A DNA stretch of 62,406 bases, counting the filler, from Stramenopiles sp. TOSAG23-2 (lineage: Eukaryota): NCBI GenBank assembly GCA_900128395.1. It is 7 parts of 7 records of this genome, joined end to end, with 100 filler letters (N's around TTAATTAATTAA, not from the genome) between each part and the next. Parts side by side here need not be neighbours in the genome. Positions count along the whole stretch, not along the records: positions 1 to 27,015 come from LT649423.1; 6 more parts are not named here. One strand, 5' to 3'. A program made the position numbers and the translations under genes. Positions within the stretch are counted from its first letter, which is position 1. Each line of letters opens with the position of its first letter. The notes under the pieces are model-generated. The model searched no databases. It had not been told where the DNA came from and was given only the letters and a program-made list of their open reading frames with translations. Below are positions 1-60,739 of the stretch, in pieces.

Positions 1-1
1 A

Positions 2-535
2 ACACCTATTGTATGTGCATGTGAACACGGACGTATGGATGATGTCGAATTATTTATGAATCTTCATCCTTTTCACAAGTATATTACTAATTGTGATGTG
101 AATGGCTACAGAGATGATATGACAGTGAAAGATATGGTGAGTCAAGTCGGTAGAAGTAGTAGTGGTGGTGAATGTACACCTTTAATGGCAGCTGCAGCGT
201 ACGAACATTTCCAAGTAGTTCAATATTTGATTGAACAAGGTGAAGCTGATCCTAATATTACAAGTAGGTATGAAGAGAATGCATTACATCCTGCAGCATG
301 TCATAACAGAAAGAATACTGAGTTGATTGAATTGTTATTAACTCATATGTCTCTTGATAGCATTAATAAGAAGGACAGGGAGGGAGACACTCCCCTGGAT
401 GGGGCATATGCATATAATCGTAGTCCAATTCAACAAGAGATCATTGCACTTTTACGTTCAAAAGGTGGAAAAGCAAATAATTTTGATGAAAATGGTAGAC
501 ATGTAGGATATAATAATGGTGATTTAAATCATTAA
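2..535 (+). CDS. Ankyrin-repeat protein (5' truncated at window edge)
   Basis: Ankyrin motifs TPLMAAA, NALHPAA, DTPLDGA. The frame is open upstream of ATG 35 (TPIVCACEHGR-M) to the window start. Confidence 0.9.
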   Translation, partial: TPIVCACEHGRMDDVELFMNLHPFHKYITNCDVNGYRDDMTVKDMVSQVGRSSSGGECTPLMAAAAYEHFQVVQYLIEQGEADPNITSRYEENALHPAACHNRKNTELIELLLTHMSLDSINKKDREGDTPLDGAYAYNRSPIQQEIIALLRSKGGKANNFDENGRHVGYNNGDLNH

Positions 536-1116
536 TTTCTTTTCACTCACATAAAATCACATTTCAAATTAAAGATATTAAATATAAATTAAAAAACACC
601 CATTTTGTAAAAAAAACACTATTTTTTTCTTAATTTATGCAGAATATAAAGGCACTCTTTCTCTCATCGACATCAAGCATTCACTACACACCCACCTAAA
701 CGAGTTTTTAACTTTGAGAGAAAGTCCATGACGATAACGTGTTTTAAAAATATATAAAAAATATTAAAAAATCAAAAATGCATTTTCTAAATTACAAAAA
801 CTTAAAATAAATTTTACACCACGCGCACACACATGTTTAAAACGAATTCACATTGGATGTGTCCAATATATAATTCTCATTATGTATACTTGTTTCCATG
901 CACACCTTTCCCCTTTTTTCATACTCGTATTATTAAACGCTACGAACACAAAACTGATGCCTCCTCTATCCCACGTGTTGTCCAAAAAACCATCTTTTAT
1001 TCCAGCTATTTAAATACATTTATCAAACACATTTTTATTTATAAAAAACTAACTACTACTAACATATATCTTTGCATGTATTATTCACAAACTATAAAAA
1101 AATAAAACATACAAAT

Positions 1117-1530
1117 TTAATTGAATTGTGCTTCGTATTTAGCTGCATTACCTGGTGTTTTCATCCATTCTTCAAACTCGTCACATGATTTGTTGAATAC
1201 TTCTTCGTTACCTGGTTGTGCAATAAAATCATCAAATTTATCTGAAAACATGGATGGTACCATATCAACTGGACCGGAATCACCTGCAACCACCGTTGCT
1301 GGTTCTTCTTCTTTACTACTACCAGTCATTTTAGAGATCAATACACACGTTGCAATAAGTCCAATATATGCTGCTACGATTTGTTCATCTTTTGGCAAAT
1401 ATTGACGTACTACAGCTTCTGCACCTTCATATGTAACATTTGCATCTGAACCAAAATTTCTTCTTGCAACACGTTGTGTTGGTTGTGTTCTAACACTTTT
1501 TTTCACAGCAGTTTGCATTAAACGAAACAT
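1117..1530 (-). CDS. Small putative mitochondrial single-pass membrane protein
   Basis: Arg/Lys-rich, acid-free N-terminus ending RRNF-GS (presequence-like) and one hydrophobic segment IVAAYIGLIATCVLI. Family not recognised. Confidence 0.7.
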   Translation of the reverse strand: MFRLMQTAVKKSVRTQPTQRVARRNFGSDANVTYEGAEAVVRQYLPKDEQIVAAYIGLIATCVLISKMTGSSKEEEPATVVAGDSGPVDMVPSMFSDKFDDFIAQPGNEEVFNKSCDEFEEWMKTPGNAAKYEAQFN

Positions 1531-2126
1531 CTTCTTCTTTTTTTTTCTCTTTATATTTATTTTTCTTTCTTACTATATACGAATAATGTATTGATAATAT
1601 GTTTTTCCACACAAAGATATATCTATCTGTCTGTACAATTATCTATCTACGAAGTATTACATTTCTATTAACTAAACATATATATATATTCATTCATTTT
1701 CTATTAATAATTAACAACAAATATATTTATAAATATTATATTTTTGATCTATTTATCCATTAGTAAATCATAAAATTGGAAGAATGGTATAGAATACACA
1801 ATTTATTGTTTTCTATTAGCAATAGTATTTTACAGTAATGATGGAGGTATATAGGGTAATAATAATAAGTACATTTATTGTATTCTATTGTTTTTTTATG
1901 GATGACGATATAATATTAGAATAGTAATAAGTGTAAAATTATATAATGATATAATTAATAATGTACATTGGTGAATAAATATCCATTTTCATTTTCATAT
2001 TCAAAAGGGAGGAAAGAATATCTATTGTATTTAGCATAAAACTGTGTGGCCTGGTTTCCGCGTAATGGTGTGGCCTCGTTAAATCACAAATGGGTCGATT
2101 GGGATCCAACCACCCACGAATGATTT

Positions 2127-2332
2127 CTACCTATCAAAGGACCGATAATTTATACTTGAATGGCGAAATTAGAATATCAATCCTCACATCAATTCGGTTT
2201 CTGCCTATCAAATGACCAAAATTTATACTTGAATGGCGAAATTAGAATATCAAAAACTTCAAAGGGAAATTAGAATATCAGAAATCTTCACCATCATCGA
2301 TTTCACCTTAAAGGGAAATTAGAAAATCAAAA
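2127..2332. repeat. Imperfect local direct repeats
   Basis: Two ~55-nt copies of CT(A/G)CCTATCAAA..AATTTATACTTGAATGGCGAAATTAGAATATCAA plus two shorter AAAGGGAAATTAGAA(T/A)ATCA copies. Confidence 0.7.
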
Positions 2333-2480
2333 AATCAGAAAAATCAGAGAGTCTCTCTGGAAAAATATCGAATGACACATAATTTAAAAAAATAATTTGA
2401 AGATAGATTTCGATTTATATAAAATATTGAAAAAATACAACTAGGTAAATACTACTACTGGAGAGATTTTAAATATTATA

Positions 2481-5400
2481 TCACACAACATGCCTTTTAC
2501 TTGCTCTTTTACTCCAATTTGTAAGAATGTTTCGTACAAGAGATAAACGTGGTCGATCTTCCATTTTTTGTGACCAACATAAATTGACAAGGTCAACATA
2601 TCCAAGTCCTGTTTTTTTGTCATAAAAATGAAAATTTTTCAATGATTCCATATCTTTCAACGTAATCTCAGGTCGTAAACTATCATTCACAACAGCACGA
2701 TTGATCATATTCACTGGCTCGCCTTCAAATGGCATTTTATTTGTAAGCAAGGCCCATAATAAAACACCTATGGAGAAAACATCGCCAGCTTCTGAATATT
2801 GTTCTAACATTAACATTTCAGGCGGTAACCATCCCGCAAAGTTAGATTCATCACCAAGAACTTCAGCTTTATTACTTTTAACGATATTTTTATGAATCCC
2901 AGATAATTTTACCTTTATTTCTTGTGCATTTTTTTCCTTTGGTTGAAATAAACAAAACATTTCACTAGCAGATAAATGTCCATGGAAAACATTTCGTTCG
3001 TGTAAATATTCAAGAACATTGCATAATTTAGTAAGAATCTGTAGTTTTCTATTCCATCCTAATGATGGACCTTTATTTAGTATTAAACTCTTTAAAGTTT
3101 CGTACTCTTGTTCTTTTACTTGCTTGAACAATAAAAAACTTTTTGAATTATTAATCTTTACCGGATTCCATGTACAACCAATACATTCTAATAAATTTAC
3201 ATGTTTATAAGAAAATAAATTTGAAATTTCTTCAAGTATTTTTCGTTCACTACGTTGAATATTTTTTAGTTTCTTTCCACGTCGAAATTTCAACTTTAAA
3301 GCATAAATTGTCGTTTCTGTTGATATCACTTTGCCACAAATATATGACTCATGCAATATACTTTTATCCATTGGAGAATCAAAAAGCTGAATGTTGCTAG
3401 TATCTACAAACCAATCATGTTTAGTTGCATCTAACGTATTATCATTGGTCGCTGATGATGCTGTCTTTTTTACACCTGTTGTGCCCATTGCTGCTGGGTT
3501 GTTTTTCCATTCGTTTAAACTTAACCCAACTTCCGGGCCACTATATTCAACTTCATATTTAAGTTTTGTACATGCCGTTGATGCAGAACATCGTTCTTTT
3601 ACATCACCATTCCAGCAAGATTCTGTGATTTTTTGCATACCTTCCGCTTCCGCTTCACTCATTCCAGTCCCATCAAACACCCATGTTGGGCGTAAATTTT
3701 GTTTTGCAACATGTAAACTTTGTTGATATGCATTCAGATCGCTATCAAAATATGGTTCCTTTCTCGTTGCGATTTCGTATAATATAAGCGAGAAAGCAAA
3801 AATATCACCAGCAGTAGTGTAATCTCCGCCTAATGTAACTTCTGGAGGTTGATAAAGAAGTGTACCTTTCGGCCCTTTGAGACCAGGAGCTAAATTTTTT
3901 GTATCGCCTTGTCCATCATCAATTGCGACATTGTTCCGTAGCGCTGATAACCCATTTAGAGAGCCCGAAAATGAGCTATTAGAAGCACCACCTTCACTAT
4001 CATCTTTCTCAAATTCACTTAAACCAAAATCACTAATTTTACAAACCCAATGCTCATCAACAAGGATATTCTCACTTTTCATATCACAATGTGTCATTCC
4101 TTTTGAGTGCAAATATTCAAGACCAAGAGCAATATTAAATGCAAAGTCCCATAGTCTATTTGCATTTAAACGAATGGTAGGATCTTGTAAAATACCGCTA
4201 AGAGTTCCTCGTTCCATATAATCTACAACAAGAGAACTTTGTTCTAAAATGGCACCAATGAATTGGACTAAATGTTTATGACGTAAATCAACTAGACTCA
4301 CTAATTCTGCTACAAAGTCTGCATTTGAAAGTGCAGCTTTTGAAAATTTCTTTATAGCAACTTTGGTGTTTCCATATGTACCCAACCAAACTGTTCCATA
4401 GGCACCTGTTCCAATACTTTTCACAATCACCACTTCATTGGAATTGATGGTCCATGCATCTGATTTTGCAGATACAATTCGTTTGATGCTTTTGTAATAA
4501 TTTGTATTTGTACAAGTTTCCAATATTTTAATTACAATATTTGTAAATCTTGGGTTGAAAAAAAAAGCCCACAATACAAAGGCGGTCCACCATCTGCAAA
4601 ATGCACCAATGAGGACATTAATGGTTCCATCATTGTTTATTGTCGTGCTGTGGAGCGTAGCGTATGAATGAGTGATGTGTTAGAGACAATGCCCTTTTTA
4701 TTAGGTTTAGGATAATATAGAAGTTACTTACATTCTTAAATATAAAATTGTTGGTATTATTTGACATATTGTGCCATTGTAAACGGCTAATGAGATTGAA
4801 TGACTATCTTGAAAAATACTTTCAACATATGTATTTTGAATCGATAATAAAACTGCATATAAAATAATAGAAAATTCTATGAATGAAATGATAGGTATAT
4901 ATGTCAAAGCCGTATTTACTGGGCATACGTTGTGGACATAAAACAATGGAGCAATATTAGGCTTTACATTTGGATTTGAATATAATGGTTCAGGCCCTCG
5001 TATTTCTACATCTACGATTGCCCAAATTATTAAATAGACAATTACAAAAGCAAAGACGGCCAATGTTGTCATAATCATTTTCCTAGATTCACCTGGAAGA
5101 TATGTTTTTACTTTTTTACTTGAAAAAATGGCTGTCATTGATCTTAATCTACATACTAAAGGAATAATAGTAAATACTGTTGAAAAATATCGAAATGCAA
5201 ACTCTAAAGTGCAATGTATATTATTACCAGATTCTACATTTGGCTCCGCAGTAGTCAATATGACTTCAATGTTGACGCAAATTATACCAAAATACAATAC
5301 GTTTTCATAATTTCGTTGTTGAATATCCTTATCATTCAACTTTTGTTTTTTGAAATATGGAATGATATATGTCCCAATTATGGCACACGTACAATAAACG

Positions 5401-7259
5401 GCATGGGCGATAGCAATTACATGAAGAATTGAAAAAAATATTGGTATAGCATCATAGATTTTACTTCTATCATTTAATGATAGAACGTTTGGACAAAGGT
5501 ATCCTTCATGTACAGCACTTTTCCAATTGCGCCTCATTTCGCTTCGGTTTTCCGATATTACACTACAAAGTGCATGATTCATAGCAACACTTTCTATTTG
5601 TTTCCACCGTTGCTTGTAATTATTTTTTATAGTGTAATAGATTTTAAAAACCTTTTGCAAATTATCATCTTCAAATTGGTAATCTTTTAAAAAGGTGTAA
5701 ATTGGAGATGGAACATGTTTCTCATTAAAAAGTCTATCGTTTATCCTTTTTGCTTGCTTTTGTAATGATACAGATAGTGTTTTGTGAAGTGCTTGAGGTT
5801 TATCATCACAGTTTGCTTTTGAAAAATTTCGATAAACATCAGGATGTTCATTTTTGCATATATCTTTAAATATTTCTCTACGCGTTAGACGGCATTCTTT
5901 AGTAGATGTAGGAAACAAAACATCAAACATTTCAAATTCTGTTTCTGCATATTCATAAAATAAAACATCTGGTTTCCACCACCACATAAGAACCATTTCT
6001 TTCCGGTCTTTTGCTGCAGCCCATATTTCAGCAACGTTAGAAATAGTATAACCTCCCCGTTGTTTTGGTCCATGAAAACTAAGACTGACATTATTTAGCG
6101 GTATCATAAATTTTGAAAAATCTCCCCAATCGCATTTTTCTAATATTATTGCTGACCCAATGCAAGTTGATGGATTTAACGTGCAATTATTAATACCATT
6201 TCCATCAAAATAGCCATGAAACACTATTGTATCATTATTTGAGAATCGATGAAAATATTTATCTCCTAAATTTGTATTTAATGGTGGACATAATGATGAT
6301 TTTATTGATTCTAAAGGATAAAAACGATTGCAATATTCAGTCCAATTTACCGGCCTTTTAAATAATCGTGCCATTTTCTCTCGGTCTTGAAAACCACGAT
6401 AAGTAGCAAGTGAATGATCTGTATCCACTGCCCATTTAGGTACCATTAAGGCTATCCGTCCTATGAAACCTATTAAACCACCTCTCTCTATTGTACGATT
6501 TAAAGCCATTTTTTCAACCCGTTTAGCAACTGATTCCCAATATTCAAATTGCACATGCGCACATGGTTTTGTCGGATCAGTGCATTTGCAAGTTAAATTA
6601 AGGCGATTTGTTCCAGCTATATATGCGTTATTGATGCACCCACCATTTTTTATTGCATCTAAATCATATGCTGAAACTTTTTCTCTTGTATAAAGTGGAG
6701 TTTCTATATGCTCTTCATAAAATCCTTTTGAAACAGATTTATCGTAGCGATATAATACAGGGTATTTCATATACTCTACCATAAAAATCTGAGCCGCGTT
6801 AGACACAAGGTTTGCACTAAGCCAATTTTGGGGGGCAATATAAATTTCTTGACCTCGAAATAGCTCTCCAACTGGCGACGTATCACATCGTTTTAATTTT
6901 CGGTCAGAATCATCTATGCAAATACGATTTGTATAGTCATAATTCGTACATTCTTCCATAGGAAAAACACCAATATCTAATTTATTTATTAAATCACGGA
7001 AACATCCGTCTCTATATGGATTTAGACATTTTCTCACGGACAAGTCGCATTTTGGTGGCAGTGGAATTGCATCCCCACAGTCAGCACAATCAAAATTTAT
7101 TATACAATCACTGTCTTTCTCACAAGGGCATAATACTCCACTATTTGTTGATGATGGCAAACACGCAATAATAGGTTGAACTATACAACTAAATTTAAAT
7201 AGAAGAAGTAATGAAGAGAAAATCAATAATGAAATATTTTTAGTATGGCAAAAAAGCAT
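2481..7259 (-). CDS. Receptor kinase: signal peptide + PBP2-like ectodomain + class C GPCR-like 7TM + TKL kinase + pseudokinase; join(7259..4732,4647..2481), ~1564 aa
   Basis: A GT-AG intron at 4731..4648 joins the 843-aa and 697-aa ORFs in frame (LYLRI-TTINNDGTINVLIGAFCRWWTAFVLWAFFFNP). Kinase 1 has GTGAYG, VAIK, HCDMKSEN and DFG. Kinase 2 is degenerate (HGHLSASE, KLSG). 7tm_3-like motifs include FQDSHSISLAVYN and Cys residues at the TM3 start and in ECL2. Confidence 0.88.
4648..4731 (-). mobile_element. Spliceosomal intron, candidate introner-like element copy A (84 nt)
   Basis: GTAAGT...CTAAC...CACAG; removal restores the frame. Homologous to the intron at 60190-60287. Confidence 0.75.
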
Positions 7260-8136
7260 TCTCTCGCTCTCTCTCTCTCCCTGCCTGCTTTTATGATTTA
7301 TGATGTGTATTTTATCTTTTTATAGTTATATATACATATATAGATAATAATAATGGGAGATCAACTATTTATATATATATATATGTTTTCAATTATCTAT
7401 ATCTAAAAAAAACTTTATTGAATTTATGTATTGCAACTATTGGCTATATTGGCAACATTGTACCTTGCCAGGCTTGCCAGCTTGAGCACGTGCTTGATGA
7501 TGAAGAATTAGAATGGTGGTGGCGTGGTGGTAGAGTGCCCAGGGAGTGCTAGATCTAGTGTGGTAGCTATAGATAGTCGTATATGCGAATAGCATGCAGT
7601 AGCTAGCGGGGTTTCCTGTGAGTAGCCGCCTATAGATAGTATAGTCGGAGTGCTGGAGTGCCTCGCCGCTATGCAGTAGTAGTGGCTTTTTGGTATATTT
7701 CAGGAAAAAGGCACTCAACCAATACCTAATAACTATAACACTACTATTTTCGACTCCTATCAACCATAATATCGTGACATCGTATATCCTATGTAATTTC
7801 TGTAGTCGTCTACTATAGATAGATAGATAGAGCTAGCTCTATAGCGTATCATCGAGAAGTGATGCACCTTTCTGATCAACAAACAGCATAAACTGGCATA
7901 TAGCATATATAGTAATAGGTAATAGAGCAGAAGATTAAGATGATAGCAGTTACTGTAGTAGCAGTTGCCATACTCATATATGGCATACATATATTCTATT
8001 TATACATTTTTACATTTAAAAGTGCAAAAGTAAACAAGTTAATAAAAGGATAATATTTTGTGGATATGGACAATAGAGATTTTCCTTGCCAGTTTTGCCA
8101 GCTTGCCTGTACATATATCTTATAATATCCCCTACG

Positions 8137-9153
8137 ATGTCTGGAAATCGTATAAGTTACCCACCAACACAAGAAGAGTTTGAAGCAATGTTGCAGAAAA
8201 TACAATTATTAGAAGAAAAAGAACTTCAAGTTAATCTGTCTTTAGATGAAAATACTCAATCAACTAACAAAGATACTAAAGTCTTTGTAAAATCAATCGA
8301 ATTGGGATCACTACCTAAACCTGAAAGAGCTAGGAATAGGCGTGCAATCAATAGGAATTCGTGGGTTGACGCGTATCATGATATCACAGCAAGGAAACAA
8401 AACACAGTAATATTAGGAGAGGAAATTTCCATCGACGATTTTCTCGATTGGAGAGTTAAATGGAGTCAACGTGGTATGTTACTATTTGGATTTTTGTCAA
8501 TGATCACGTTTCTAATCAATGGCCTATTCCTGAATAGTGTTTTCGGCGGTTATACACTTATTTGCTTTGGTACAGCTACGATTCTCTGTGTTTGCATATT
8601 TTGTTACAAAAATTTTTCTCTATTTTTAATAAAACGTTTACTAAAAGAACCAAACGTTGTTTGTATTATTTTGCTTGCAGTTTTAAATTTTATCATCGAA
8701 ATTAGGTCAACATGGTCAGAAGTTGCATGGGTCTATGGTTTGCTGTACATGCTTGTTGCTTTCGCATTTATAAGTATGGATGCTGTTAAATTAAGATGCA
8801 GAGTTACTGTACTTTGTTTTGGTAATATTTTCATTATTATAAATGCATTTAATATTTATAATTGTATATTCGGTGAATCTGCCGTTGGTGTGGTACTTTT
8901 TAAATACACAGTTTATGGAAAAGAGTATTCATTCATGAGACGTGCAACTCAAAGATCTATTTTCATCCAAATTGCTTTATTCAGTATTAGTGCGGTATAT
9001 ACATTGTTTCATGATAAAAAAATGGAATTGATGCTATTTCTAACAAGCAATGTATACCGTAAAAGTGGTACTGTATTAGAAGAAATGATGTCAATTTCAT
9101 TCAAAAAACGAGAAGAAAAAAAAAAACCATCATCAAGTAGTAGAGCACACTAG
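8137..9153 (+). CDS. Hypothetical multi-pass membrane protein
   Basis: Open frame from ATG 8137 with about six hydrophobic segments and polar termini. No family recognised. Confidence 0.75.
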   Translation: MSGNRISYPPTQEEFEAMLQKIQLLEEKELQVNLSLDENTQSTNKDTKVFVKSIELGSLPKPERARNRRAINRNSWVDAYHDITARKQNTVILGEEISIDDFLDWRVKWSQRGMLLFGFLSMITFLINGLFLNSVFGGYTLICFGTATILCVCIFCYKNFSLFLIKRLLKEPNVVCIILLAVLNFIIEIRSTWSEVAWVYGLLYMLVAFAFISMDAVKLRCRVTVLCFGNIFIIINAFNIYNCIFGESAVGVVLFKYTVYGKEYSFMRRATQRSIFIQIALFSISAVYTLFHDKKMELMLFLTSNVYRKSGTVLEEMMSISFKKREEKKKPSSSSRAH

Positions 9154-10531
9154 AACAAATAAAACTCGAGAAGACACAAACATATTTTGATAAAATATAC
9201 TTTTTAATTATGCAAGATAGAAGCAAACCATTACGAATTTGCGATTTTGTGTTTCAGTAGGGTTACTGCTTGGTATTTTTTCGTTTTATATCTCAATGGG
9301 CTCCAGTAAAGGTATTGGCCAAGGAGGTTGTAGAGCCATTGAAAATATAATATACAAAAGTACAAAAACATTATATTTCTATGGAGCATCAATACAAAAG
9401 ATATTGATATTTTTTTTTCAGGTTTCAAATCCGATTACTATTACGCTAGTCACAATTGTTATGTGTATAGGACTACATAATGCAATGCAGTATATATATC
9501 ACTGCTGCTGCAATCTTTCTTGTTGCGCCAGAGCTGAACCGCTCAATGGCAAAGTCGTGTTGCTCAAAAAGAAAAGCGACTAACCCTTATTTAATAGTTT
9601 TATTTTTGTACGTGAAAATAAGCGAGAAACTGCGAATGAATGCAAAGCAGAAAAATGCCTTTTCGACAGCGATGGTAGGCATAGTGTTTAATGATCATAT
9701 ATCAAATAAGCATGGTTAGAGTGTATATATCTAATAATCATAAGTTGGTAAAAAGACATTGCAAACGAGATGAGGGCATGTATACTTGAAAGATTGCAAA
9801 TGTATATGAAAATATATTTTGAATAAACAAAAATAAAAGATATGGATTAAATATATAAAATAGAAAAAAGTAATTAAAGAAGAGACCAACTTACAAAAAA
9901 AAGAATACGACATATTTATATATATATATAAACATATTTACCATACAATGCTACAATTTTTTTATTTTACTGTTTTGACTCTTATCTTGATTTGTGATAA
10001 AAGATACGCGTGGCGTGCAAAAATCACATTCAAAAAAATATCCCAAAAAAAAAATTGTTGTCCAAATCAAATGTTTTTCGTCGACAATCGACAATAAATA
10101 TTTTCCTTCACCTGAAAAAATCTTGTTTTTAGTGCTATGTAGTGCTAAAATTTATCTGCCAGGTAAATAGCACTATATTATAAAAACCTTACTCTGTCGA
10201 TCGATGGACACATCTAATTATTTCAAATTATGAATAATAAAATGCAAAACGGAAGAAGAAAATGCATTGAAATTTAATGAATTGTGCAATTTAATAAAAT
10301 ACAATATATTTTATTTATAATAAAGAAGAGTAAAGAGAATAGTAATATATACAATTGTCACATTGTGTAACACATCTTAGATCGATACTGACATTTTTTT
10401 ATAGATCGTCATATTGTTGTTGTTTCTGTAATCAACCATAATACACTGGAATTTGTATATCGTTGTCGCAGTAAAAGAAATAATTTTAAAGTAATAAAAA
10501 TACTAAAATAATATTATATATCTCGTTAAAA

Positions 10532-10687
10532 ATGAAATATAATAATCATAATGTCATCATATATCTAATAATATTCGTTATTATGAATGGTGTAAAAGCT
10601 CAAGGTATGAAAAAGAAAATTTTATGCCTTCATGGTGGAGGGAGTAGTGGACCAGCATTTCAATCACAAACTATAGCACTTACTACG
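10532..10687 (+). pseudogene. Orphan first exon of an FSH1-like serine hydrolase with signal peptide
   Basis: KKILCLHGGGSSGPAFQSQT matches the FSH1/OVCA2 N-terminus. GTAATG donor at 10688, but no downstream exon is visible before the next gene. Confidence 0.55.
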
Positions 10688-10878
10688 GTAATGTTTTTTT
10701 TTTGTGCATATTATATTAATATTATAATATTGATTGATTGACGAAAGAATGAATTTTACCATTACAAAAATACACATATTACCATAGTAACAAAAAAGAA
10801 AGTATTATAAAACGTTGAGAGATATAATAGTACAATATTATAAAAAACATATATATATATAATAACAATTACAAGAAA

Positions 10879-10910
<32 letters not shown>

Positions 10911-11107
10911 TAAAATTTTCGTTCTTGATATATATAAAAATATATATTATTATATATATAAATAATATTTGAATTATTTTAATTATTATTTATAAATATA
11001 AATAAGTTTTAGTCAATATATAATATATAAATAATAATAATAATCTAACTTATTATATTATTATTTACCACCTAACTATATATATATATATATTTATACC
11101 AACATAA

Positions 11108-11138
<31 letters not shown>

Positions 11139-11168
11139 TAGACGAACAATATCAAAACAACATAGTAT

Positions 11169-12488
11169 ATGCCAAAGAGAAATTCATTTTCAATTGACGG
11201 TATGGTGGATGCACAGACACCTTTGACGGATAATGAGGATGGGTTGAGTAATAACGAAAAGGTAATAAATGAAAAAAATCGTTGTTGTCGTTGTACCACA
11301 TCTATTGGTGGTAAGTGTAAAGTGAAATGGAGTCTTGCACGTGTATTGACAACATCATTTTATACCTTGTCTCTCATAGCAATGGTGTTAACATCCATCG
11401 AATTAAGAGAATCTAGGTATAAAGATAGTTTACATAATGTTGGTTGGTTTATTGCTGGTGTATTTGTATGTTTAGCTGTACCATTATCCGTATTTGATAT
11501 TGCTCAACATTTACACAATTTTCAAAGTACAACTACACAAAAATATGTCATTCGTATTATGTGGATGGTACCAATTTATGCAATTGAAAGTTGGCTATCT
11601 TTGCGTTTTAAACAATTTGCTTTTACATTAGCATTATTTAGAGATTCATATGAAGCATATGTGATTTATTGTTTTTGTTATTTATTAATTGCTTTATTAG
11701 GTACTGAAAATGAAGTAAATGAAATTATTAAAGCTAAAACTGAGCATGATTTGGACCATATGTTTCCATTTAAATGCATGTTTAATAGATTTGAAAAATA
11801 TGAATTTTTAATTAAAGTAAAACGTGGTGTATTACAATACGTTGTTGTGAAAATTGTATGTACCATTATTACATTAATTACAAGTAATATTGTCATCAAT
11901 GCTGCTACGGATGAAACATTGTATGATGAGAATTCATATGATTTTGTACATTTCCATTTATATGTTGTGATATTAGTCAATTGCTCGCAAATATGGGCAA
12001 TGTATTGTTTAGTATTATTTTACCATGCATGCATGGAAGAATTAGCTCCATATCGACCATTTGGTAAATTTGTATGCGTAAAAGCAGTTGTCTTCTTCAG
12101 TTTTTGGCAAGAAATGGCAATTGGCATGGCTGTCCATTTTGGAATTATACATGGTACGACGAATCCATTTTCATCATATACACCACACGATGTTGCAAAA
12201 GGTTCACAAGATTTCTTAATATGTATTGAAATGTTCATTGCTGCTATTGCACATCATTTTGCATTTCATTATCGTGATTTTACGGATAGAAATGCTGATA
12301 GCAAAATTCCATTTTTAAAAGCATTTGCTGAAGTCAGTAATCCACATGATGTTGTAGAAGATATACGAACAAATTTACCATTGCCAAATCCATCCAATGT
12401 TAAATTGCCAAATGTACCGATCCCGAAATTATTTGCTGGAAAAAGCAAAACAGATGGTGATGATAATGAAGAAGAGTCGATTTTATAA
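11169..12488 (+). CDS. TMEM184: TMEM184/OST-alpha (Solute_trans_a) family transporter
   Basis: Motifs IRIMWMVPIYAIESW, RDSYEAYVIYCF, GVLQY, KFVCVKAVVFFSFWQ, QDFLICIEMFIAAIAHHFAF. Confidence 0.95.
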   Translation: MPKRNSFSIDGMVDAQTPLTDNEDGLSNNEKVINEKNRCCRCTTSIGGKCKVKWSLARVLTTSFYTLSLIAMVLTSIELRESRYKDSLHNVGWFIAGVFVCLAVPLSVFDIAQHLHNFQSTTTQKYVIRIMWMVPIYAIESWLSLRFKQFAFTLALFRDSYEAYVIYCFCYLLIALLGTENEVNEIIKAKTEHDLDHMFPFKCMFNRFEKYEFLIKVKRGVLQYVVVKIVCTIITLITSNIVINAATDETLYDENSYDFVHFHLYVVILVNCSQIWAMYCLVLFYHACMEELAPYRPFGKFVCVKAVVFFSFWQEMAIGMAVHFGIIHGTTNPFSSYTPHDVAKGSQDFLICIEMFIAAIAHHFAFHYRDFTDRNADSKIPFLKAFAEVSNPHDVVEDIRTNLPLPNPSNVKLPNVPIPKLFAGKSKTDGDDNEEESIL

Positions 12489-12927
12489 TATATATTTTCT
12501 GCACATAAATATTATACAATTTATTAAAAATATATTACGAAGTATATAAATTTTAATGCATTAACTTATTTTTTTAATTTACTCATGATAATTCCTACTC
12601 TCCAGAAAGAATACAATAACTCTGAGACAAATCTATCTCACTAAACTGAAAGACATTAATATAAAAAATATATAAAATATGTGTGTTCAAGTGAGATTGA
12701 ATGAGATGAATGTTTGAGTGTAAAATGTGTACAAGATATAAATAATTTTTTTATTAACAAAGTACATGTATATATATATAGAGAGAAAAAGGCTAATTTT
12801 ACGGTGTCTCAACAAATACCCCCGCATACACGCACACTTTCAAACAAAATCTCACGATTTCTCAACAAAAAGTTGTTTCACACACAGAGCTTTATCAACT
12901 TCTGCTTTCTTTTCTTTCTTTTTTTCG

Positions 12928-14580
12928 TTATATTGTTTCTTCTGCTTTTTCAATACCATCCTCTTCTCCTCCTTCTTTATCATCATTATTATCCTCCTCC
13001 TCTTCTTTCTCTTTTGCTTTTCGTGTTTTTACAACTTTTGGTGATATTATTAATGGTCGTTCCCAACTTGTTTGTTTTGTTACCTTGTTATAATAATAAA
13101 TACCACCACCTCTTGGATCCATTGCTGCTCTCCATGGCATTGGTAATGTTGGATCATGCACTTTTTTTGGTGATTGTAACATGGAATATAACACGTTTGA
13201 TTTTCGTGGTGAACCTGGTGTACGATTTCCATAATATTCATCTGCATCTGTTTTACCACCACCAACACCGCCACTACGACGAGTACTATTATTATCAGCA
13301 TTGTTTAATGTATATTCCACTTCATTCATTAATCGGATTTTTTGTTGACGTTTTTGTTTTAAACCTTTTAATAATGCTCGTCCAGATTTAGGTTTTGGTA
13401 CATCTTGAACAAGGTATGTTCGTGGCACGCCATCATTTCTCCACATATTTGTTACACGAAATTGAAAGTCTTTCATACCACTTAAACCATTTTGTGAATT
13501 AGTCGTAACATTGCGATTTGTTTTTGCATTTATTGACAATGCTAACGACTTCTCAATTTTATGGCACATGTATACAAATAATTCTTTTACTTTTAACACT
13601 ACATGTACATTATATTCGCGATATGCAACAAGTGCACAACGAATGATTGCTTCCCAAAATTCATCAAATGTTAACCTACCAATATGATCGACAATATGTG
13701 CTTTTACGGAACTTAAAAATATTTCCGACAACTCAATTGATGTTAAAATAGGTGTATTGTTCATCGATGAGCGTAAATTGAAATCTTCACAAAATTGCAA
13801 CCATTTTTCGAAACCTAATGCATTTGCCATGGAATTTATATTGTTATCCATTGAAAATCTTCTTCCACGTCCACCATGATAGTCTTCACGTTCAATCGAT
13901 GGACGGAATTCACCATAATATTGCAAAATTAATTGAAAACTAGGTGAAAATACTTCGTACATTTCTCGTACATATTTCAATTCCACTAAATTTTTCCTAA
14001 CAGGGCGTCTCCTGGAGTATCGAAATACTTTTTCATCCAATAAACGTTCCAAACAATGTTCATCAGAGCCTGGATATATTTTTTTACCTAAACGTGATAA
14101 AGCATTTAAAAAATCTGAAAAATTCATTTTCTTAATAGAACTAAAGCGTTTCTCTGGATCATGTCGTGTTTGCAGTTGCCTCGCACATTCCGACAGTGTT
14201 GCTTTCCCATGTGCATACCCACTAGCTTTACGCGTACCGCGTCCTGTAACATCATCCGCGCGCTTTGAGACAATATCTTTATAAATAACTGTACAATCTT
14301 GTTTTAATACTCGTTTCTCATCAATAATATTTGCTTCCTCACAAAATTCTGTAAAGGTTTGTGCACGTAAAAACATTGGTGTTTGTGGATTCCCATTAAT
14401 GGTATAAAATGTAAATATCCTCCATAATAATACTTCCAAATCACCATCAAGTTCATCAATATCTGGTTCATAAATGATTACTTCTTTGCTATTATTATTA
14501 TTGTAATTGTTGTAACTATTATTTTTCAACCTATTATTATTATTATTTACACTAACTATGGATGTGCTAAATGCTGACAT
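12928..14580 (-). CDS. p25-alpha/EF-hand-like repeat protein with C-terminal WW domain
   Basis: WW domain LPMPWRAAMDPRGGGIYYYNKVTKQTSWERP. Two helical repeats (FTEFCEEANII...MNFSDFLNAL; WLQFCEDFNL...LTFDEFWEAI) resemble TPPP/p25-alpha. Confidence 0.8.
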   Translation of the reverse strand: MSAFSTSIVSVNNNNNRLKNNSYNNYNNNNSKEVIIYEPDIDELDGDLEVLLWRIFTFYTINGNPQTPMFLRAQTFTEFCEEANIIDEKRVLKQDCTVIYKDIVSKRADDVTGRGTRKASGYAHGKATLSECARQLQTRHDPEKRFSSIKKMNFSDFLNALSRLGKKIYPGSDEHCLERLLDEKVFRYSRRRPVRKNLVELKYVREMYEVFSPSFQLILQYYGEFRPSIEREDYHGGRGRRFSMDNNINSMANALGFEKWLQFCEDFNLRSSMNNTPILTSIELSEIFLSSVKAHIVDHIGRLTFDEFWEAIIRCALVAYREYNVHVVLKVKELFVYMCHKIEKSLALSINAKTNRNVTTNSQNGLSGMKDFQFRVTNMWRNDGVPRTYLVQDVPKPKSGRALLKGLKQKRQQKIRLMNEVEYTLNNADNNSTRRSGGVGGGKTDADEYYGNRTPGSPRKSNVLYSMLQSPKKVHDPTLPMPWRAAMDPRGGGIYYYNKVTKQTSWERPLIISPKVVKTRKAKEKEEEEDNNDDKEGGEEDGIEKAEETI

Positions 14581-17825: not shown

Positions 17826-20015
17826 ATGAAAAATAAAAGTAAATTAATATTCATATCTCTTGTCTTATTATTAGTATTATTTATATGTTTACCAACACAA
17901 GTAAATGGTTGGGGTTCCTTATTTGGTAGTAGTAGTAGTAATAATAATAATAATGATAACGACGATAATAATAATGATAACGACGATAATAACAACGACA
18001 ATATCCAAGAACAAAATGAAGAAAATAATGACAATAATAACATTATCCCTGAAAAAACACAGCCAATAATCAATAAACAACCAATCAAACGTAAAAATGC
18101 TGTATCAGAAGATGTTGAAAATAATGAAAACAACCAAGCAGAACCAACAATAGCACCACCACAACAACAACAACAACAACAATTGCAAGCTTTAACGATA
18201 GTGGAACAAGTACAAACTGATGATAATGAAATTGAAACAAAACCAATATCGTCTCCACCATCAACGCCACCACCACCATCACAACCATCCATTTTTGAAC
18301 CAGAAGATGATTGGAAAGAAATATTACCTGGACAGCATATACCTGGTGGATTAGATGTGCGTATGAATTTACAAACTGGTGAAAAATATGCACGTTTAAT
18401 GCCTGAAACTGCATCATCGTCGACACATTGGTCTAATAAGCGTAATAAAAATTTAAAAGGTGAAGATGTAATAGCAGCAGAAGAAGAAGAAGCAATAATA
18501 GTTGCAGATCATGCACCAATTATCAATAATAAAACATCTAATAACAATCATCGTAGGTTAGATATTAATAATTTGGATGAAGATGAAGATTTATCTCCAT
18601 TAGATGCTGAAATGAAATCAGCACAAATGATTGAACGAGTATTAAATGGATTACCATTGTAAGTATTGTTTGGGATTTATTTTTCCATTTTATATCCGCC
18701 CCACACAAATAAATGATTATATATATACAAACAACTAACAAAAAATATTATGTTATTATTATTATTTTTATTACTATGAATTATTTATTTCAGACCACCG
18801 AAAGAATTAAAATCAGCTAGTACGTTATCACCTGAAAAATACAAAGAAGTCATGCAATTGTTGTGGAAAAAACGACAACTGGAATTGAAAGATGCCGAAA
18901 GTAAAATCCATAATTCCGCAAAAGCGATGCAAACTGGTACAGATATATTATTAAATACTTCTTCACATGATAATGATAAGATACAAATTTTGAAAAATAT
19001 GGAATATGAAGTCCAACAATTAGATAATGCAATGGATTTTGCTACGATTGGTGGATTAGCTGCTACGATAAATTTATTAGATCATTCTAATTTTAAGATA
19101 CGAAAATACGCTGCTTGGGTAATAGGTACAGCAGTGAAAAATTATGATCAAGTACAAGAAGAGTTATTAAAATTAGGTGGAATTGATACATTTATTAATG
19201 TGATTCAATTGGAATCAAAAGGATTAGCGACAACAACGGAAACGATTGCAAAAAAAACATCAAACGACGATGAAGATGAAAATAATAACAATGAAGAAGT
19301 AAAAACAATTGATGTTATTGGTAAGCAATTATATGGCTTAGGTGCTTCTATTCGTGGTTCTTTGCGAAATTCGAATTATTTCTTTCAACGAAACGGTAGC
19401 AAATTATTATATAAATTGTTAAATATGATTAAAAAAGCAATTGATGTTGGTCCATTAAATCAAGTTGCCGGGCCACAAACTACGAATGGTGATCGTGCAT
19501 GGACACCAGAGACCATGGTATTGAAACGTAAATTATGTGGTGTACAAAACAAAGTTTTAAATTTAATTGGAGATAATTTAAATTTCGCAATTGATACCAT
19601 ACAACATTTCGGTGGTGTTGAAATGCAAGATGGTACAAATGGTATGTTAATAGCAAGATCGTTAACTACAGTTGAATGGTGTAAGATGTTAAATGATATC
19701 AGTGAAAGCTTATGTGATGATGATGTAAGTCGTGAAAAAATTTTACGTGCCTTGCAAATTATTTTACAAATTGCAAAAAGAAATGGTGCAACATATGAAG
19801 ATAATTTTGATGCTACCGCTGGTAGTAATAATGATGATAATATATCATTATCTAAATGTTTTAATATTATCCATCATTCCAATAAATTAAAAACAGCATT
19901 AAATGGTTGGAAAAAAGAATGGAGTGATGCATTATTGGAAGATCCAACGGATGATTATGCAAAAGATTTATCGAATATGGTTGACAGTGTATTGAAAAGA
20001 GAGGAGAGTAAATAA
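17826..20015 (+). CDS. SIL1: SIL1/BAP-like ER Hsp70 nucleotide exchange factor; join(17826..18658,18794..20015), 684 aa
   Basis: Signal peptide, SIL1 motif FEPEDDWKEILPGQHIPGGLDVRMNLQTGEKYARL, and Fes1/ARM region LDNAMDF..IGG...AAWVIGTAVKN. The GT-AG intron at 18659-18793 restores the frame. Confidence 0.9.
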
Positions 20016-59182: not shown

Positions 59183-59183
59183 C

Positions 59184-60739
59184 AATAATAGTAAAAAAGA
59201 ACAAAAAAGAATTAATTCAGCTTCCATCCATCATGGAACACCTAATTTTTACCTGGAAAGTCAAAGTACAAATACAGAAATGGTTCAGATAGAGGAATAT
59301 ACAATTGTGAATAGAAAAAGTAGTAATAATGCCATACAAAATCGAAATTTATCTACATTAGGGCCATCAGAAACTATAGAAATAAATAATAAAAATCTTC
59401 CTAAAACAATACCGACACCAATAGAAGTATTAGCAAGAAAATCGGAAAATGATAATGTTGATAATCATAATAATGATAATAATAGTAATAATAGTAGTAC
59501 AACCCTAAACAAGATTCCTTTTGTATCTTTTGTTATAGAATGGGGGTATTTTCAGAAAGAGGAAGCAGAAACGATATTATTAGAAACATGGAACCATGGT
59601 AATATAGAAAATAGTTGGAAAGACAATTTTCCAAAAGAAACAATTATTTGCAATTTAAATGTAGATTGGATACCTGCACAAGATGTTGTAAAAGATTGCT
59701 CAATACCAATGTATTTACAAGAACCAGCAGCAGTTTTTCACCCGACAGAAGATCCAGGAAAGCGTTTAGATAATAATTCCATCAGAAGAAAGTTATTTCC
59801 TGTTCTTTATGAAGTGTTTGATTTAATTTTGTCATCATCATTAAAACATTTACTATTATACCATTGCTTTATAAAAATTGAGGATATCTTGGCAAAGGAA
59901 CAAAGTATTATTGTAAATGACAACAATGAAGACGATGAAGAAAATAGTAATGATGAGAAAGTATTAATCCCATCTTTTTGTATATGTTTGCATCGTAATT
60001 ATGTTGCTGAATATTTTATTGTAGATAATCATGTTCCTATATTTGGAGAGAGAGATAATGATGATAATGGTGGATGTTTAGAACATGAATATTGGCCGTT
60101 AATAATTGAAAAGGCATTGGCAAAGCAATATAATACGTATGAAAATATAAACAACTTGGAATTTCACCAGATTTTCCATTCTTTAACTGGTAAGAAATAT
60201 TCTATTCCCCCTAAACCTAAAAAAAAGAATAGGATGTATATCCTCTCTAACACTGTATCACTCATTCATATGCTGCACTTCACACAGGTGGTAATTGTAA
60301 ATATTTAGAACTTCATGACGATAAAGAAAAGAATAATATGACAAGCGAAACATTTTGGCATTTATTACTAAATCATCATGCAGATGGTGACATTATTGCA
60401 ATTGAATGGAATCATGTGGATGATCCAAATGATAATACGGAGAGTAAAATATTGTTAATGATATGTACAAACTTTTTTAGAAATAAGGATCATTCACATA
60501 TTCAAGAAGATGCTAATAAAAACGAAACGAAACTCCTCAATAGTAATTACAATGTAGATGATGGATTTACATTGGAGGAAATAGAAAAACTAGAAGGTAG
60601 ATTTATTGAAATCAATAATAAATATTATTCATGGGATAAAAAAATTTGCAAAAAGAAATTTTTCGTATGTCTTCTACCACATGAAGGCGATTCTATTCGA
60701 GAATTTAAGCATTTTCCAAATACAAAAAGAAGGGTGTAG
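59184..60739 (+). CDS. Calpain-like (CysPc) protein, probably non-catalytic, 5' partial; join(<59184..60189,60288..60739)
   Basis: IVDNHVP and EYWPLIIEKALAKQYNTYENI. Splicing 60190-60287 creates the conserved SLTGG and joins the MTSETFW ORF in frame. Confidence 0.8.
60190..60287 (+). mobile_element. Spliceosomal intron, candidate introner-like element copy B (98 nt)
   Basis: GTAAGA...CTAAC...CACAG; removal restores the calpain LTGG motif. Homologous to the intron at 4648-4731. Confidence 0.75.

What the first reader, a model, noticed from the sequence alone, without database searches (positions are those of the whole stretch)
4648..4731. Candidate introner family: homologous introns in unrelated genes (copy A; partner at 60190-60287)
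Seen: copy A (minus strand) is GTAAGTAACTTCTATATTATCCTAAACCTAATAAAAAGGGCATTGTCTCTAACACATCACTCATTCATACGCTACGCTCCACAG. Copy B is GTAAGAAATATTCTATTCCCCCTAAACCTAAAAAAAAGAATAGGATGTATATCCTCTCTAACACTGTATCACTCATTCATATGCTGCACTTCACACAG. They share colinear blocks well beyond the splice signals (TTCTAT, CCTAAACCTAA.AAAAAG, TCTCTAACAC, ATCACTCATTCATA, CACAG). They sit in a receptor kinase and a calpain-like gene, on different contigs and in different phases (2 and 1). The four other complete introns I inferred in the window lack these blocks. Established: sequence-similar introns at non-homologous sites define introners/ILEs (Micromonas, Aureococcus, dothideomycete fungi). Inference: this genome carries an intron-generating element family. 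I see no TIR or TSD, and the element has a telomere-like CCTAAACCTAA core, so its mechanism is open. An intron-hosted ncRNA is an alternative.
Basis: partly seen in the sequence, partly recalled or inferred. Interest (0 to 1): 0.9.

Follow-up and report, generated by a model that had tools for sequence, protein, structure and literature searches.

The report
Mobile intron family in marine protist
The two short introns are copies of one intron of about 83 bases that has multiplied into dozens of unrelated genes of an uncultured, AT-rich ocean protist, a clear new example of the "introner" route by which genomes gain introns.

Summary
Both segments are real GT..AG introns and are homologous (blastn E~1e-8). 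One scan of public metagenome contigs with a 21-base block they share gave 56 loci. 54 of the 57 matches there are the same intron. With the window's two copies these make 40 distinct sites, and a profile search raised that to at least 46. Length is 74-106 nt (median 83). The 5' 28 nt and the stretch from branch point to 3' end are conserved; the middle varies.

After excision, 43 of 44 testable sites give one open frame on the intron's own strand. No copy is intergenic or antisense. There is no target-site duplication, no terminal inverted repeat, no RNA fold and no Rfam match. An RNA contig joins 4647 to 4732 exactly, so copy A is spliced.

Near-identical copies sit in unrelated genes (80/81). 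Homologous genes differ in presence or absence, and one site carries copies of two subfamilies.

Verdict: a genuine introner family of the TSD-less, TIR-less kind. How it spreads is not shown. I favour RNA-level, intron-precise insertion (~0.4) over TSD-less DNA insertion (~0.35). It is a new member of a known kind. It may already be listed in supplements I could not open.

The parts
4648..4731 (-). Copy A of the intron family (84 nt, GTAAGT...CACAG), phase 2, in the 7TM plus double-kinase gene
   Evidence: Sequence. The family profile scores it at E 8e-20. RNA contig X15 record 1 joins 4647 to 4732. The same site is in metagenome locus L051.
60190..60287 (+). Copy B of the intron family (98 nt, GTAAGA...CACACAG), phase 1, in the calpain-like gene
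   Evidence: Sequence. Family profile E 7.8e-14. The reading frame is continuous after excision. The same site is in L049. Homologue P0259 is uninterrupted at this codon. Splicing of B itself was not tested with RNA.
4701..4711 (-). Telomere-repeat-like core CCTAAACCTAA of copy A, part of the conserved 5' block
   Evidence: Exact match. Conserved as CCCCTAAACCT in most of the 42 aligned copies.
4679..4683 (-). Branch-point motif CTAAC of copy A, followed by the invariant block ATCACTCATTCATA (4663-4676)
   Evidence: In the family the branch A lies 27-38 nt (median 32.5) from the 3' end. Other introns of the window also carry CTAAC.
60210..60220 (+). Telomere-repeat-like core CCTAAACCTAA of copy B
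   Evidence: Exact match.
60247..60270 (+). Branch-point CTAAC (60247-60251) and conserved block ATCACTCATTCATA (60257-60270) of copy B
4732..7319 (-). Upstream exon of the host gene of A (open frame; start codon not fixed): extracellular region plus class-C GPCR-like TM1-TM6
   Evidence: ORF 4728-7319. PF00003 7tm_3 on residues 616-839, profile positions 12-218 of 251.
2484..4647 (-). Downstream exon of the host gene of A: TM7 plus two protein-kinase domains
   Evidence: ORF. PF07714 and PF00069. RNA contig X15 record 1 covers 2445-4647.
59183..60189 (+). Upstream exon, cut by the contig start, of the calpain-like host gene of B
   Evidence: ORF. Weak PF00648 match at residues 299-335. Homologue P0259 carries PF00648.
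60288..60739 (+). Downstream exon of the calpain-like gene, up to its stop codon
   Evidence: ORF 60251-60739. Colinear with P0259.
18659..18793 (+). Comparator: an ordinary intron that is not a family member (135 nt, GTAAGT..CTAAC..CAG)
   Evidence: RNA contig X15 record 5 joins 18658 to 18794. No family-profile hit.

Best explanation
A and B belong to an introner family: a self-contained spliceosomal intron of about 83 nt that carries its own 5' splice site (GTAAGT), branch point (CTCTAAC) and 3' splice site (CACAG). It has been copied into many unrelated protein-coding genes of an uncultured, AT-rich marine protist lineage whose nearest named relatives are stramenopiles. I put the family claim at about 0.9. 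SHOWN: the copied unit is exactly the intron. It is spliced (copy A). It occurs at 46 or more sites, always in the sense orientation inside reading frames. It has no TSD, no TIR and no fold. It has subfamilies, with near-identical copies in unrelated genes. Homologous genes differ in presence or absence. INFERRED mechanism, about 0.4: the mobile unit is the excised intron RNA. The spliceosome reinserts it into another transcript by reverse splicing (intron transposition), with only a weak preference for G at exon position -1. The product is then reverse-transcribed and recombined into the gene. On this view the two conserved ends are the parts that hold the spliceosome, and the middle is free to drift. 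The confidence given below is for this mechanism, not for the family claim.
For: Family. One scan with a 21-base block gave 56 metagenome loci. 54 of the 57 matches there are full or truncated copies of the same intron. The same pattern gave 0 hits in the GTDB prokaryote contigs (596 billion bases) and 0 in viral contigs. There are 40 distinct sites, plus L019 and five more from nhmmer. Segments that the search pattern did not fix are still conserved. The first 28 nt show 80% mean pairwise identity and the 3' tail 77%, against 57% for the middle and 51% for control exon 28-mers. Copying. The L005 and L056 copies differ at 1 of 81 positions but sit in a mitochondrial-carrier gene and an ABCB gene. 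The L030 copy is 96% identical to the L009 copy in an unrelated gene. Gain or loss. The second family intron of L030 is absent from its homologue L033, and P0259 is uninterrupted at site B. Mechanism. The boundaries equal the intron. Flanks diverge immediately outside GT and AG. In DNA run X4, 21 records have loose ends exactly at 4648 with discordant flanks. 39 of 40 pattern sites give an open frame on the intron's strand after excision, as do 4 further copies. None lies in the roughly 20% of the DNA outside ORFs of 100 or more codons. For TSDs of 5 nt or more, at most 1 of 40 sites matches in any register, and there is no TIR.
Against: No step of an RNA route is shown. I have no reverse transcriptase, no lariat or circle reads and no filled-versus-empty allele pair. 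Family introns show no 3' bias in their host genes (mean relative position 0.46, n=34), which poly(A)-primed cDNA recombination might predict. The target motif is weak: G at -1 in 21 of 40 sites, and no clear AG|G. In a gene-dense genome, selection alone could remove antisense exonic insertions. Gozashti et al. 2022 conclude that most introners are consistent with DNA transposition, and they also report TSD-less and TIR-less families (sections 6-7 read). The phase-2 excess (22/9/8) and the conserved telomere-like core are not predicted by this model. The copy set was collected with an exact 21-base block. Of 6 further copies met without that filter, only 1 carries the exact block, so the set is biased towards near-consensus members.
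Confidence: 0.4

Rival explanations
1. The element is a TSD-less, TIR-less DNA-level introner that inserts 'directly' into DNA by cut-and-paste or copy-and-paste. It inserts in any orientation and context, and only sense insertions in exons that splice cleanly survive. The conserved ends are recognition sites for a transposase or recombinase encoded in trans; the telomere-like core could be such a site.
For: Gozashti et al. 2022 report that most introners look like DNA transposons. Many families lack TSDs (49 of 130 have them) or TIRs (72 of 177 have them). They give an Alternaria example of apparent 'direct insertion', and median family lengths of 30-654 nt. The absence of positional bias along genes fits DNA-level insertion. 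A conserved subterminal motif is typical of elements mobilised in trans (general knowledge, recalled).
Against: 0 of at least 46 sites are intergenic or antisense, although about 20% of the sampled DNA lies outside long ORFs. Neutral intergenic copies should persist. There is no TSD or TIR at all. The copied unit ends exactly at the splice sites. No long version occurs in 378 kb: every pairing of 5' and 3' blocks is either under 120 nt or belongs to two separate introns.
Confidence: 0.35
2. This is an old intron class held similar by function or by gene conversion, and it is no longer mobile. The shared blocks would be needed for a special splicing or regulatory step, or the copies would be homogenised by ectopic conversion.
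For: L030 and L033 are homologous ABCC genes (tblastn 39-52% and tblastx up to 58% protein identity, exon nucleotide identity at most 77%). They carry a family intron at the same codon, and at 86% it is the best-conserved nucleotide stretch between them. At site 28, L037 and L047 differ at about 4-5% in their exons but at 1 of 87 positions in the intron. That difference is not significant (P about 0.1).
Against: The two same-site introns belong to different subfamilies. Each is closer to copies in unrelated genes (96% and 90%) than to the other (85.5%, rank 15 of 39). That is not vertical descent under constraint. Other same-site pairs show the intron changing faster than the exons: site 10 has 3 mismatches plus 1 gap in 105 intron positions against 2 in 1200 exon positions, and site 17 has 3 in 80 against 4 in 588. 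Degenerate family-like introns exist (L013:642-755 and others). Ordinary introns of the same genome splice without these blocks. One copy is present in a gene and absent from its homologue.
Confidence: 0.1
3. The introns are similar because each hosts the same small RNA, such as a snoRNA, a mirtron or another ncRNA.
For: The sequence conservation goes beyond the splice signals.
Against: There is no Rfam match at gathering threshold. At E up to 10 the hits are only weak and differ between A and B. RNAfold energies are no lower than those of shuffles (mean z +0.75 over 40 copies). RNAalifold predicts 0 pairs on 42 copies. The most variable part is the middle, where a hosted RNA would lie.
Confidence: 0.03
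4. The match is chance, or it reflects only genome-wide splice signals of an intron-poor organism, or it is an assembly or adapter artefact.
For: GTAAGT, CTAAC and CAG are general signals in this genome. Introns here are generally G-poor.
Against: E is about 1e-8 within the window. The conserved blocks lie outside the signals. The other introns of the window lack them. Copies recur in many separate public records with variable middles, and copy A is precisely missing from an RNA contig.
Confidence: 0.01

Closest known systems
Introners without TSD or TIR ('direct insertion' type), as catalogued by Gozashti et al. 2022 (PNAS; sections 6-7 and passages read). Examples are the Alternaria alternata family and the non-TSD/non-TIR families of Micromonas pusilla.
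   Same: Multi-copy, sequence-similar introns at non-homologous sites. They carry their own splice sites, have no TSD or TIR, and are short (reported median family lengths 30-654 nt). The host is aquatic and unicellular. Closely related genes differ in presence or absence.
   Different: This sequence family is not printed in any paper of the searched library. No listed paper links introners with Bigyra or MAST lineages (none of the 15 papers listed, of 282 found, holds 'introner'). Distinctive features here are a conserved telomere-repeat-like core, a phase-2 excess, and strictly sense, coding-only copies in every case seen. That survey also screened 520 partial genomes of aquatic organisms, and its lists are in supplements I could not open. 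The family may therefore already be catalogued there.
MITE-like DNA-transposon introners: Micromonas pusilla IE1 and the stramenopile and dinoflagellate families (Huff et al. 2016, recalled; summarised in Mob DNA 2024, PMC11282704, passages read).
   Same: Short non-autonomous elements that create introns on a genomic scale in marine picoeukaryotes. The element supplies the 5' GT.
   Different: Those elements have 3-nt or longer TSDs and TIRs and co-opt one splice site from the TSD. Here both splice sites and the branch point lie inside the conserved unit, and no TSD or TIR is found.
Fungal introner-like elements (ILEs) of Dothideomycetes (Commun Integr Biol 2013, PMC3609843; abstract seen in search listing).
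   Same: Many copies, sense orientation, no transposon hallmarks, decay into ordinary-looking introns, and reverse splicing discussed as the route.
   Different: Per that abstract, ILEs are longer than regular introns and have stable predicted secondary structures. This family is as short as or shorter than the other introns seen (83 nt against 83-193 nt) and is unstructured.
Strict lineage-wide splice signals in intron-poor microbes, for example Ostreococcus as met by earlier agents of this scan.
   Same: Strong GTAAGT and CTAAC consensus in an intron-poor, compact genome.
   Different: Here the similarity extends through about 70 nt outside the signals, and it is absent from other introns of the same contigs.

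Membership tests
Introners / introner-like elements (sensu Gozashti et al. 2022) | At least four sequence-similar introns at non-homologous positions in unrelated genes, with the similarity starting at the intron ends | tested here: met
   40 distinct sites from the pattern scan, and at least 46 after the profile search. Flanks are unrelated and similarity begins at GT and ends at AG.
Introners / introner-like elements (sensu Gozashti et al. 2022) | The copies function as spliceosomal introns | tested here: met
   An RNA contig joins 4647 to 4732 for copy A. 39 of 40 pattern sites and 4 further copies restore one open frame on excision. Splicing of B and of the metagenome copies is inferred, not seen in RNA.
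Introners / introner-like elements (sensu Gozashti et al. 2022) | Evidence of recent gain: near-identical copies, and presence or absence between related genes | tested here: met
   L005 against L056 is 80/81 in unrelated genes. L030 has a copy that L033 lacks. P0259 is uninterrupted at site B. A within-population polymorphism was not tested.
MITE-type DNA-transposon introners (Micromonas pusilla IE1 type) | Target-site duplication flanking or overlapping the intron ends | tested here: not met
   All registers were tested for k=2-6 on 40 sites. For k of 5 or more, at most 1 of 40 matches. Small k gives only what G|GT and AG|G coincidences would give.
MITE-type DNA-transposon introners (Micromonas pusilla IE1 type) | Terminal inverted repeats | tested here: not met
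   The 5' 20 nt and the reverse complement of the 3' 20 nt show no similarity (five of the 40 copies printed). No fold pairs the two ends.
MITE-type DNA-transposon introners (Micromonas pusilla IE1 type) | Copies also outside genes, or in both orientations | tested here: not met
   0 of at least 46 sites, in 340 kb of loci plus the window. A whole genome was not available.
Fungal ILEs | Stable predicted secondary structure, and longer than regular introns | tested here: not met
   Mean z +0.75 against shuffles. 0 consensus pairs. Median length 83 nt against 83-193 nt for six other introns.
Intron-hosted snoRNA / mirtron | A match to a known RNA family, or a conserved hairpin or box structure | tested here: not met
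Reverse-splicing (RNA-propagated) mobile intron | Copied unit is exactly the intron; sense-only; in transcribed sequence only; no TSD | tested here: met
   These features are necessary but not sufficient.
Reverse-splicing (RNA-propagated) mobile intron | A demonstrated RNA intermediate, reverse transcription, and recombination into the gene | not testable with these tools
   Raw lariat or circle reads and a complete genome would be needed. Only contigs of public runs could be laid.

The most novel reading that the evidence does not exclude
The excised intron RNA itself is the mobile element. The spliceosome reinserts it into other transcripts, and it is still active in an abundant, uncultured ocean protist. 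The conserved ends persist because only copies that keep them can move again. The same codon of two diverged ABCC genes carries copies of two different subfamilies because the site has been re-invaded (a kind of intron homing). The conserved telomere-template-like core CCCUAAACCUAA might take part in priming the reverse-transcription step. If so, public ocean metagenomes and metatranscriptomes already hold the filled alleles, empty alleles and lariat reads needed to watch spliceosomal intron transposition in nature.
Probability: 0.3. Interest if true: 0.85.

Novelty: new member of a known kind. Interest (0 to 1): 0.6.

Why it matters
How new spliceosomal introns arise is a long-standing question. 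Introners are the only known way to make them in bulk, and for the families without transposon hallmarks the mechanism is unknown.

This family is a compact, clean case. It is about 83 nt long, carries all three splicing signals, is sense-only and coding-only, and has no TSD, TIR or fold. It sits in a widespread marine lineage with many public DNA and RNA data sets (20 listed runs from 15 studies hold the locus or part of it). Population-level presence or absence, and RNA intermediates, could therefore be examined without a culture.

It may make up a large share of this intron-poor genome's introns. In the window it is 2 of 5 candidates.

It also matters for annotation. Public gene models of both host genes mishandle these introns: P0246 skips TM7, and P0258 translates into the intron.

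Tried and rejected
1. No whole genome is held for this window, and the records behind the loci could not be searched further. Copy number, intergenic copies and any autonomous partner could therefore not be assessed genome-wide.

2. Earlier notes of this scan gave nothing for this genome or sequence. A search by words gave only unrelated Ostreococcus cases.

3. Rfam gave nothing at gathering threshold, and only weak, discordant hits at E up to 10.

4. Structure: a small palindrome (GGATATCC, CGATATCG) just before the branch point looked at first like a covarying hairpin. It is present in only some copies and marks subfamilies. RNAalifold gives 0 pairs.

5. TSD and TIR tests were negative. No long versions and no solo ends were found.

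6. Scans of viral contigs (two patterns) and of prokaryote genome contigs gave 0 hits.

7. P0004, a 39%-identical kinase homologue, has a different N-terminal architecture (ANF receptor, no match to the 7TM exon). It says nothing about site A.

8. Comparing intron and exon divergence between same-site variants was inconclusive. Site 28 suggests a slower intron, but with P about 0.1. Sites 10 and 17 suggest a faster one. An ungapped first pass and a long-flank codon count were confounded by indels and were discarded.

9. Position along the host coding sequence shows no bias. This is approximate because other introns were ignored.

10. No telomere arrays occur in the window or the loci, so the host's telomere unit is unknown.

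11. The automatic intron census of the loci was too noisy to give a family-to-ordinary ratio. It was used only to confirm individual copies.

12. G-poverty is not specific to the family, since other introns are also 6-16% G.

13. The DNA run laid (X4) showed no record joining 4647 to 4732 among the joints listed (23 more were not shown). An intron-less allele at site A is therefore neither shown nor excluded.

14. Taxon: the nearest named relatives are Labyrinthulomycetes (55-56% identity) for one locus gene, and oomycete kinases (20-29% identity) for the window gene. The GC content (0.32) and low intron density resemble published MAST-4A figures (33.9% GC, 0.56 introns per gene; PMC5269757 passages). 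That is a lead, not an identification.
Full report
**The observation**

Copy A (4648-4731, minus strand) and copy B (60190-60287, plus strand) read exactly as quoted. MAFFT aligns them at 82% mean column identity, with the quoted blocks invariant. blastn of each against the whole window finds the other at E about 1e-8; the next best hit is E 0.19.

The window is seven contigs joined by runs of N, so the two copies lie on different contigs. GC content is about 0.25-0.41 in 2-kb windows.

A interrupts, in phase 2, a gene with a class-C-GPCR-like 7TM domain. The Pfam match stops at profile position 218 of 251 at the exon end, and TM7 follows in the next exon. Two kinase domains come after that. 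B interrupts, in phase 1, the conserved calpain '...SLTG|GN...' stretch. A 55%-identical homologue, P0259, reads '...FHSLTGGNLQYL...' without interruption, which confirms that junction.

**Splicing**

Contigs of three RNA libraries and one DNA run were laid on window 1-20000. RNA run X15 holds a 2,673-nt contig that covers 2445-4647 and continues without a gap at 4732-4995. That is exact removal of copy A. A second contig of the same run joins 18658 to 18794, which confirms an ordinary intron.

One caveat applies. These are contigs from an RNA library, so an intron-less DNA allele cannot be formally excluded. However, DNA records do carry the intron (L051; X4 record 24 starts inside it). Copy B was not tested with RNA.

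**Is it a family?**

No genome is held for the window. I therefore spent the single metagenome scan on a 21-base block shared by A and B, allowing a 0-3 base gap.
- The scan returned 56 loci holding 57 matches.
- Three matches (L014, L039, L017) are unrelated chance hits.
- The other 54 are the same intron, one of them truncated by a contig end.
- The same pattern has 0 matches in the GTDB prokaryote contigs (596 billion bases) and 0 in viral contigs.

Clustering by flanks gives 40 distinct sites from 55 full copies, including A (also in L051) and B (also in L049). A profile built from these sites finds further copies that lack the exact block: L045:2251-2333, L021:541-619, L011:3359-3440 (also in L012 and L032), L042:2-52 and L030:8510-8594. 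It also finds weak tandem partial units in L038. With L019 that makes at least 46 sites.

In the window the profile finds only A and B. The other intron candidates there are 18659-18793, 36882-36998 and 30407-30489. They share only GTRAGT, CTAAC and YAG.

In one DNA run, 21 records end their match exactly at 4648 and continue into discordant flanks. This is independent evidence that the repeat unit ends at the 3' splice site and that many copies exist.

**Anatomy**

- Length is 74-106 nt, median 83.
- The approximate consensus is GTAAGTAAATTCTATTCCCCTAAACCTAAAAA, then a variable middle of about 18 nt, then CTCTAACACATCACTCATTCATACGCTACGCTCCACAG.
- Outside the block fixed by the search, the first 28 nt show 80% mean pairwise identity and the 3' tail 77%. 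The middle shows 57%, and control exon 28-mers 51%.
- The branch A lies 27-38 nt (median 32.5) from the 3' end.
- The RNA is G-poor (8.5% G) and C-rich (28% C). G-poverty is shared with other introns of the lineage.
- It is unstructured. Mean z is +0.75 against shuffles over 40 copies, and RNAalifold predicts 0 pairs on 42 copies.
- No Rfam family matches.

**Context of the copies**

After excision at the consensus GT and AG, 39 of 40 pattern sites give an uninterrupted frame across the junction on the intron's own strand. The exception, L044, lies 17 codons after a likely start codon. Four further copies also pass, and two are truncated and untestable.

The host genes are unrelated. They include ABC transporters, a mitochondrial carrier, a mannosidase, a dioxygenase with three copies, kinases and others. 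All host contigs are AT-rich (28-37% GC).

No copy is antisense or outside a reading frame, although about 20% of the 340 kb sampled lies outside ORFs of 100 or more codons.

Phases are 22 (phase 2), 9 (phase 0) and 8 (phase 1). Exon position -1 is G in 21 of 40 sites. No other target motif stands out. There is no TSD in any register, no TIR and no long version. Position along the host coding sequence is unbiased (mean 0.46, n=34, approximate).

**Evidence of copying and turnover**

The middles define subfamilies that cut across host genes.
- L005 and L056 differ at 1 of 81 positions, yet sit in a carrier gene and an ABCB gene.
- L034 and L037 share a GATACAA(A/T)GGACACCCTGT middle.
- Several copies share AAGGATATCCTTT.

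L030 and L033 are homologous ABCC genes, with 39-52% protein identity by tblastn (up to 58% by tblastx) and exon nucleotide identity of at most 77%. They carry a family intron at the same codon. The two copies nevertheless belong to different subfamilies. The L030 copy is 96% identical to the L009 copy in an unrelated gene, and only 85.5% identical to the L033 copy (rank 15 of 39). The site was therefore hit twice, or the intron was replaced.

L030 has a second, more diverged family intron where L033 has a continuous frame. Degenerate family-like introns also occur (L013:642-755 and others), as expected if copies decay into ordinary introns.

**Mechanism**

The family claim is secure; I put it at about 0.9. 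The route of spread is inferred.

The features that fit RNA-level 'intron transposition' are these: the copied unit equals the intron exactly, all three splicing signals lie inside it, it is sense-only and coding-only, it has no TSD or TIR, and it is conserved just where the spliceosome binds. In that route the excised intron is reverse-spliced into another transcript, reverse-transcribed and recombined into the gene. I give it about 0.4.

A TSD-less DNA insertion followed by selection is nearly as likely, at about 0.35. Such families are reported, and there is no 3' bias. The lack of any intergenic copy argues against it.

Pure functional constraint or gene conversion (about 0.1) is weakened and by same-site variants in which the intron changes faster than the exons. 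A hosted ncRNA (about 0.03) and chance or artefact (about 0.01) are effectively excluded.

**Comparison with what is known**

Introners are established. Gozashti et al. 2022 report 548 families in 175 of 3,325 genomes. Median family lengths are 30-654 nt, many families lack TSD or TIR, and there is a strong aquatic bias. That study also surveyed 520 partial genomes of aquatic organisms (sections 6-7 read).

The Micromonas pusilla IE1 type has a 3-nt TSD and TIRs and takes its 3' AG from the TSD (PMC11282704 passages). Those features were tested here and not met. Fungal ILEs are longer than regular introns and structured (PMC3609843 abstract). Those features were also not met.

The present family therefore belongs with the TSD-less, TIR-less introners.

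I found no paper that prints its motifs. The main texts of the 2022 and 2025 surveys have no occurrence of 'stramenopile' or 'MAST', and among the 15 papers listed none holds 'introner'. Supplements were closed, so prior listing cannot be excluded.

**Host**

The nearest named relatives of one locus protein are Labyrinthulomycetes: Mucochytrium quahogii at 55% and Thraustochytrium sp. at 56% identity. The window's kinase finds oomycete TKL kinases at 20-29% identity, and its own gene model in EukProt, P0246. GC content and intron density resemble published MAST-4A figures (PMC5269757 passages). That is a lead only.

**Scale (extrapolation)**

The window has 2 copies in 62 kb. The loci hold about 6 further sites beyond the seed matches, in at most 340 kb of partly redundant sequence. 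That is roughly one copy per 30-60 kb, or several hundred to over a thousand copies if the genome is tens of megabases. Only 1 of the 6 copies met without the exact-block filter carries the exact block, so the scan saw a minority of the family.

**Verdict**

This is a new member of a known kind, and it is an unusually clean candidate for RNA-propagated intron gain. Interest 0.6.

Noticed in passing
window 2484-7319 (-); protein P0246: The public EukProt model of this very gene (g14936.t1) joins '...TILYLR' directly to 'IIGTGAYG...'. It skips TM7 and the juxtamembrane region, about 80 codons, instead of removing the 84-nt intron. Gene callers appear to mishandle this intron family.
   Followed up: partly
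window 59183-60308 (+); protein P0258: A public metagenome ORF translates calpain exon 1 straight into intron B ('...HSLTGKKYSIPPKPKKKNRMYILSNTV...'). Translated family introns are therefore present in protein databases.
   Followed up: no
L038 about 2992-3107 (-), inside a 215-nt intron: One intron is built from a family-like 5' end followed by two tandem partial family units. This is an internal duplication of the element.
   Followed up: partly
L015 against L040 (site 13): The upstream exon and the intron are the same up to ...TGCTACGCT, and the sequence is unrelated after that. This is either a chimeric assembly at the repeat or recombination within it.
   Followed up: no
L030:6259-6339 (-) and L033:1781-1863 (-): Two diverged ABCC homologues have a family intron at the same codon, but the copies belong to different subfamilies. 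The L030 copy is 96% identical to the L009 copy and 85.5% to the L033 copy. The site was re-invaded or the intron was replaced.
   Followed up: yes
window 1-667 and 12007-12673: Summed contig depth in DNA run X4 is about 5,400-5,800 in these bins, against about 1-150 in the other bins. Some other high-copy or low-complexity sequence lies here.
   Followed up: no
window 2484-7319 (-): The host of copy A has an unusual architecture: a large extracellular region, a class-C GPCR-type 7TM domain (PF00003, just under the Pfam cut-off) and two protein-kinase domains in one protein.
   Followed up: no
window 20450-25426 (+): An uninterrupted 1,659-codon ORF with an adenylate/guanylate cyclase domain followed by an AAA_16 ATPase domain.
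   Followed up: no
L013:642-755 (+); L025 reverse strand 1435-1540; L042:2755-2868 (+): These introns have a family-like 5' end and branch region but diverged blocks. They may be decayed family members grading into ordinary introns.
   Followed up: no
L042 (3,434 nt): A carotenoid-cleavage-dioxygenase-like gene (my reading of the translation, no family search run) carries three family introns within about 2.1 kb, at 2-52, 1647-1720 and 2060-2141.
   Followed up: partly
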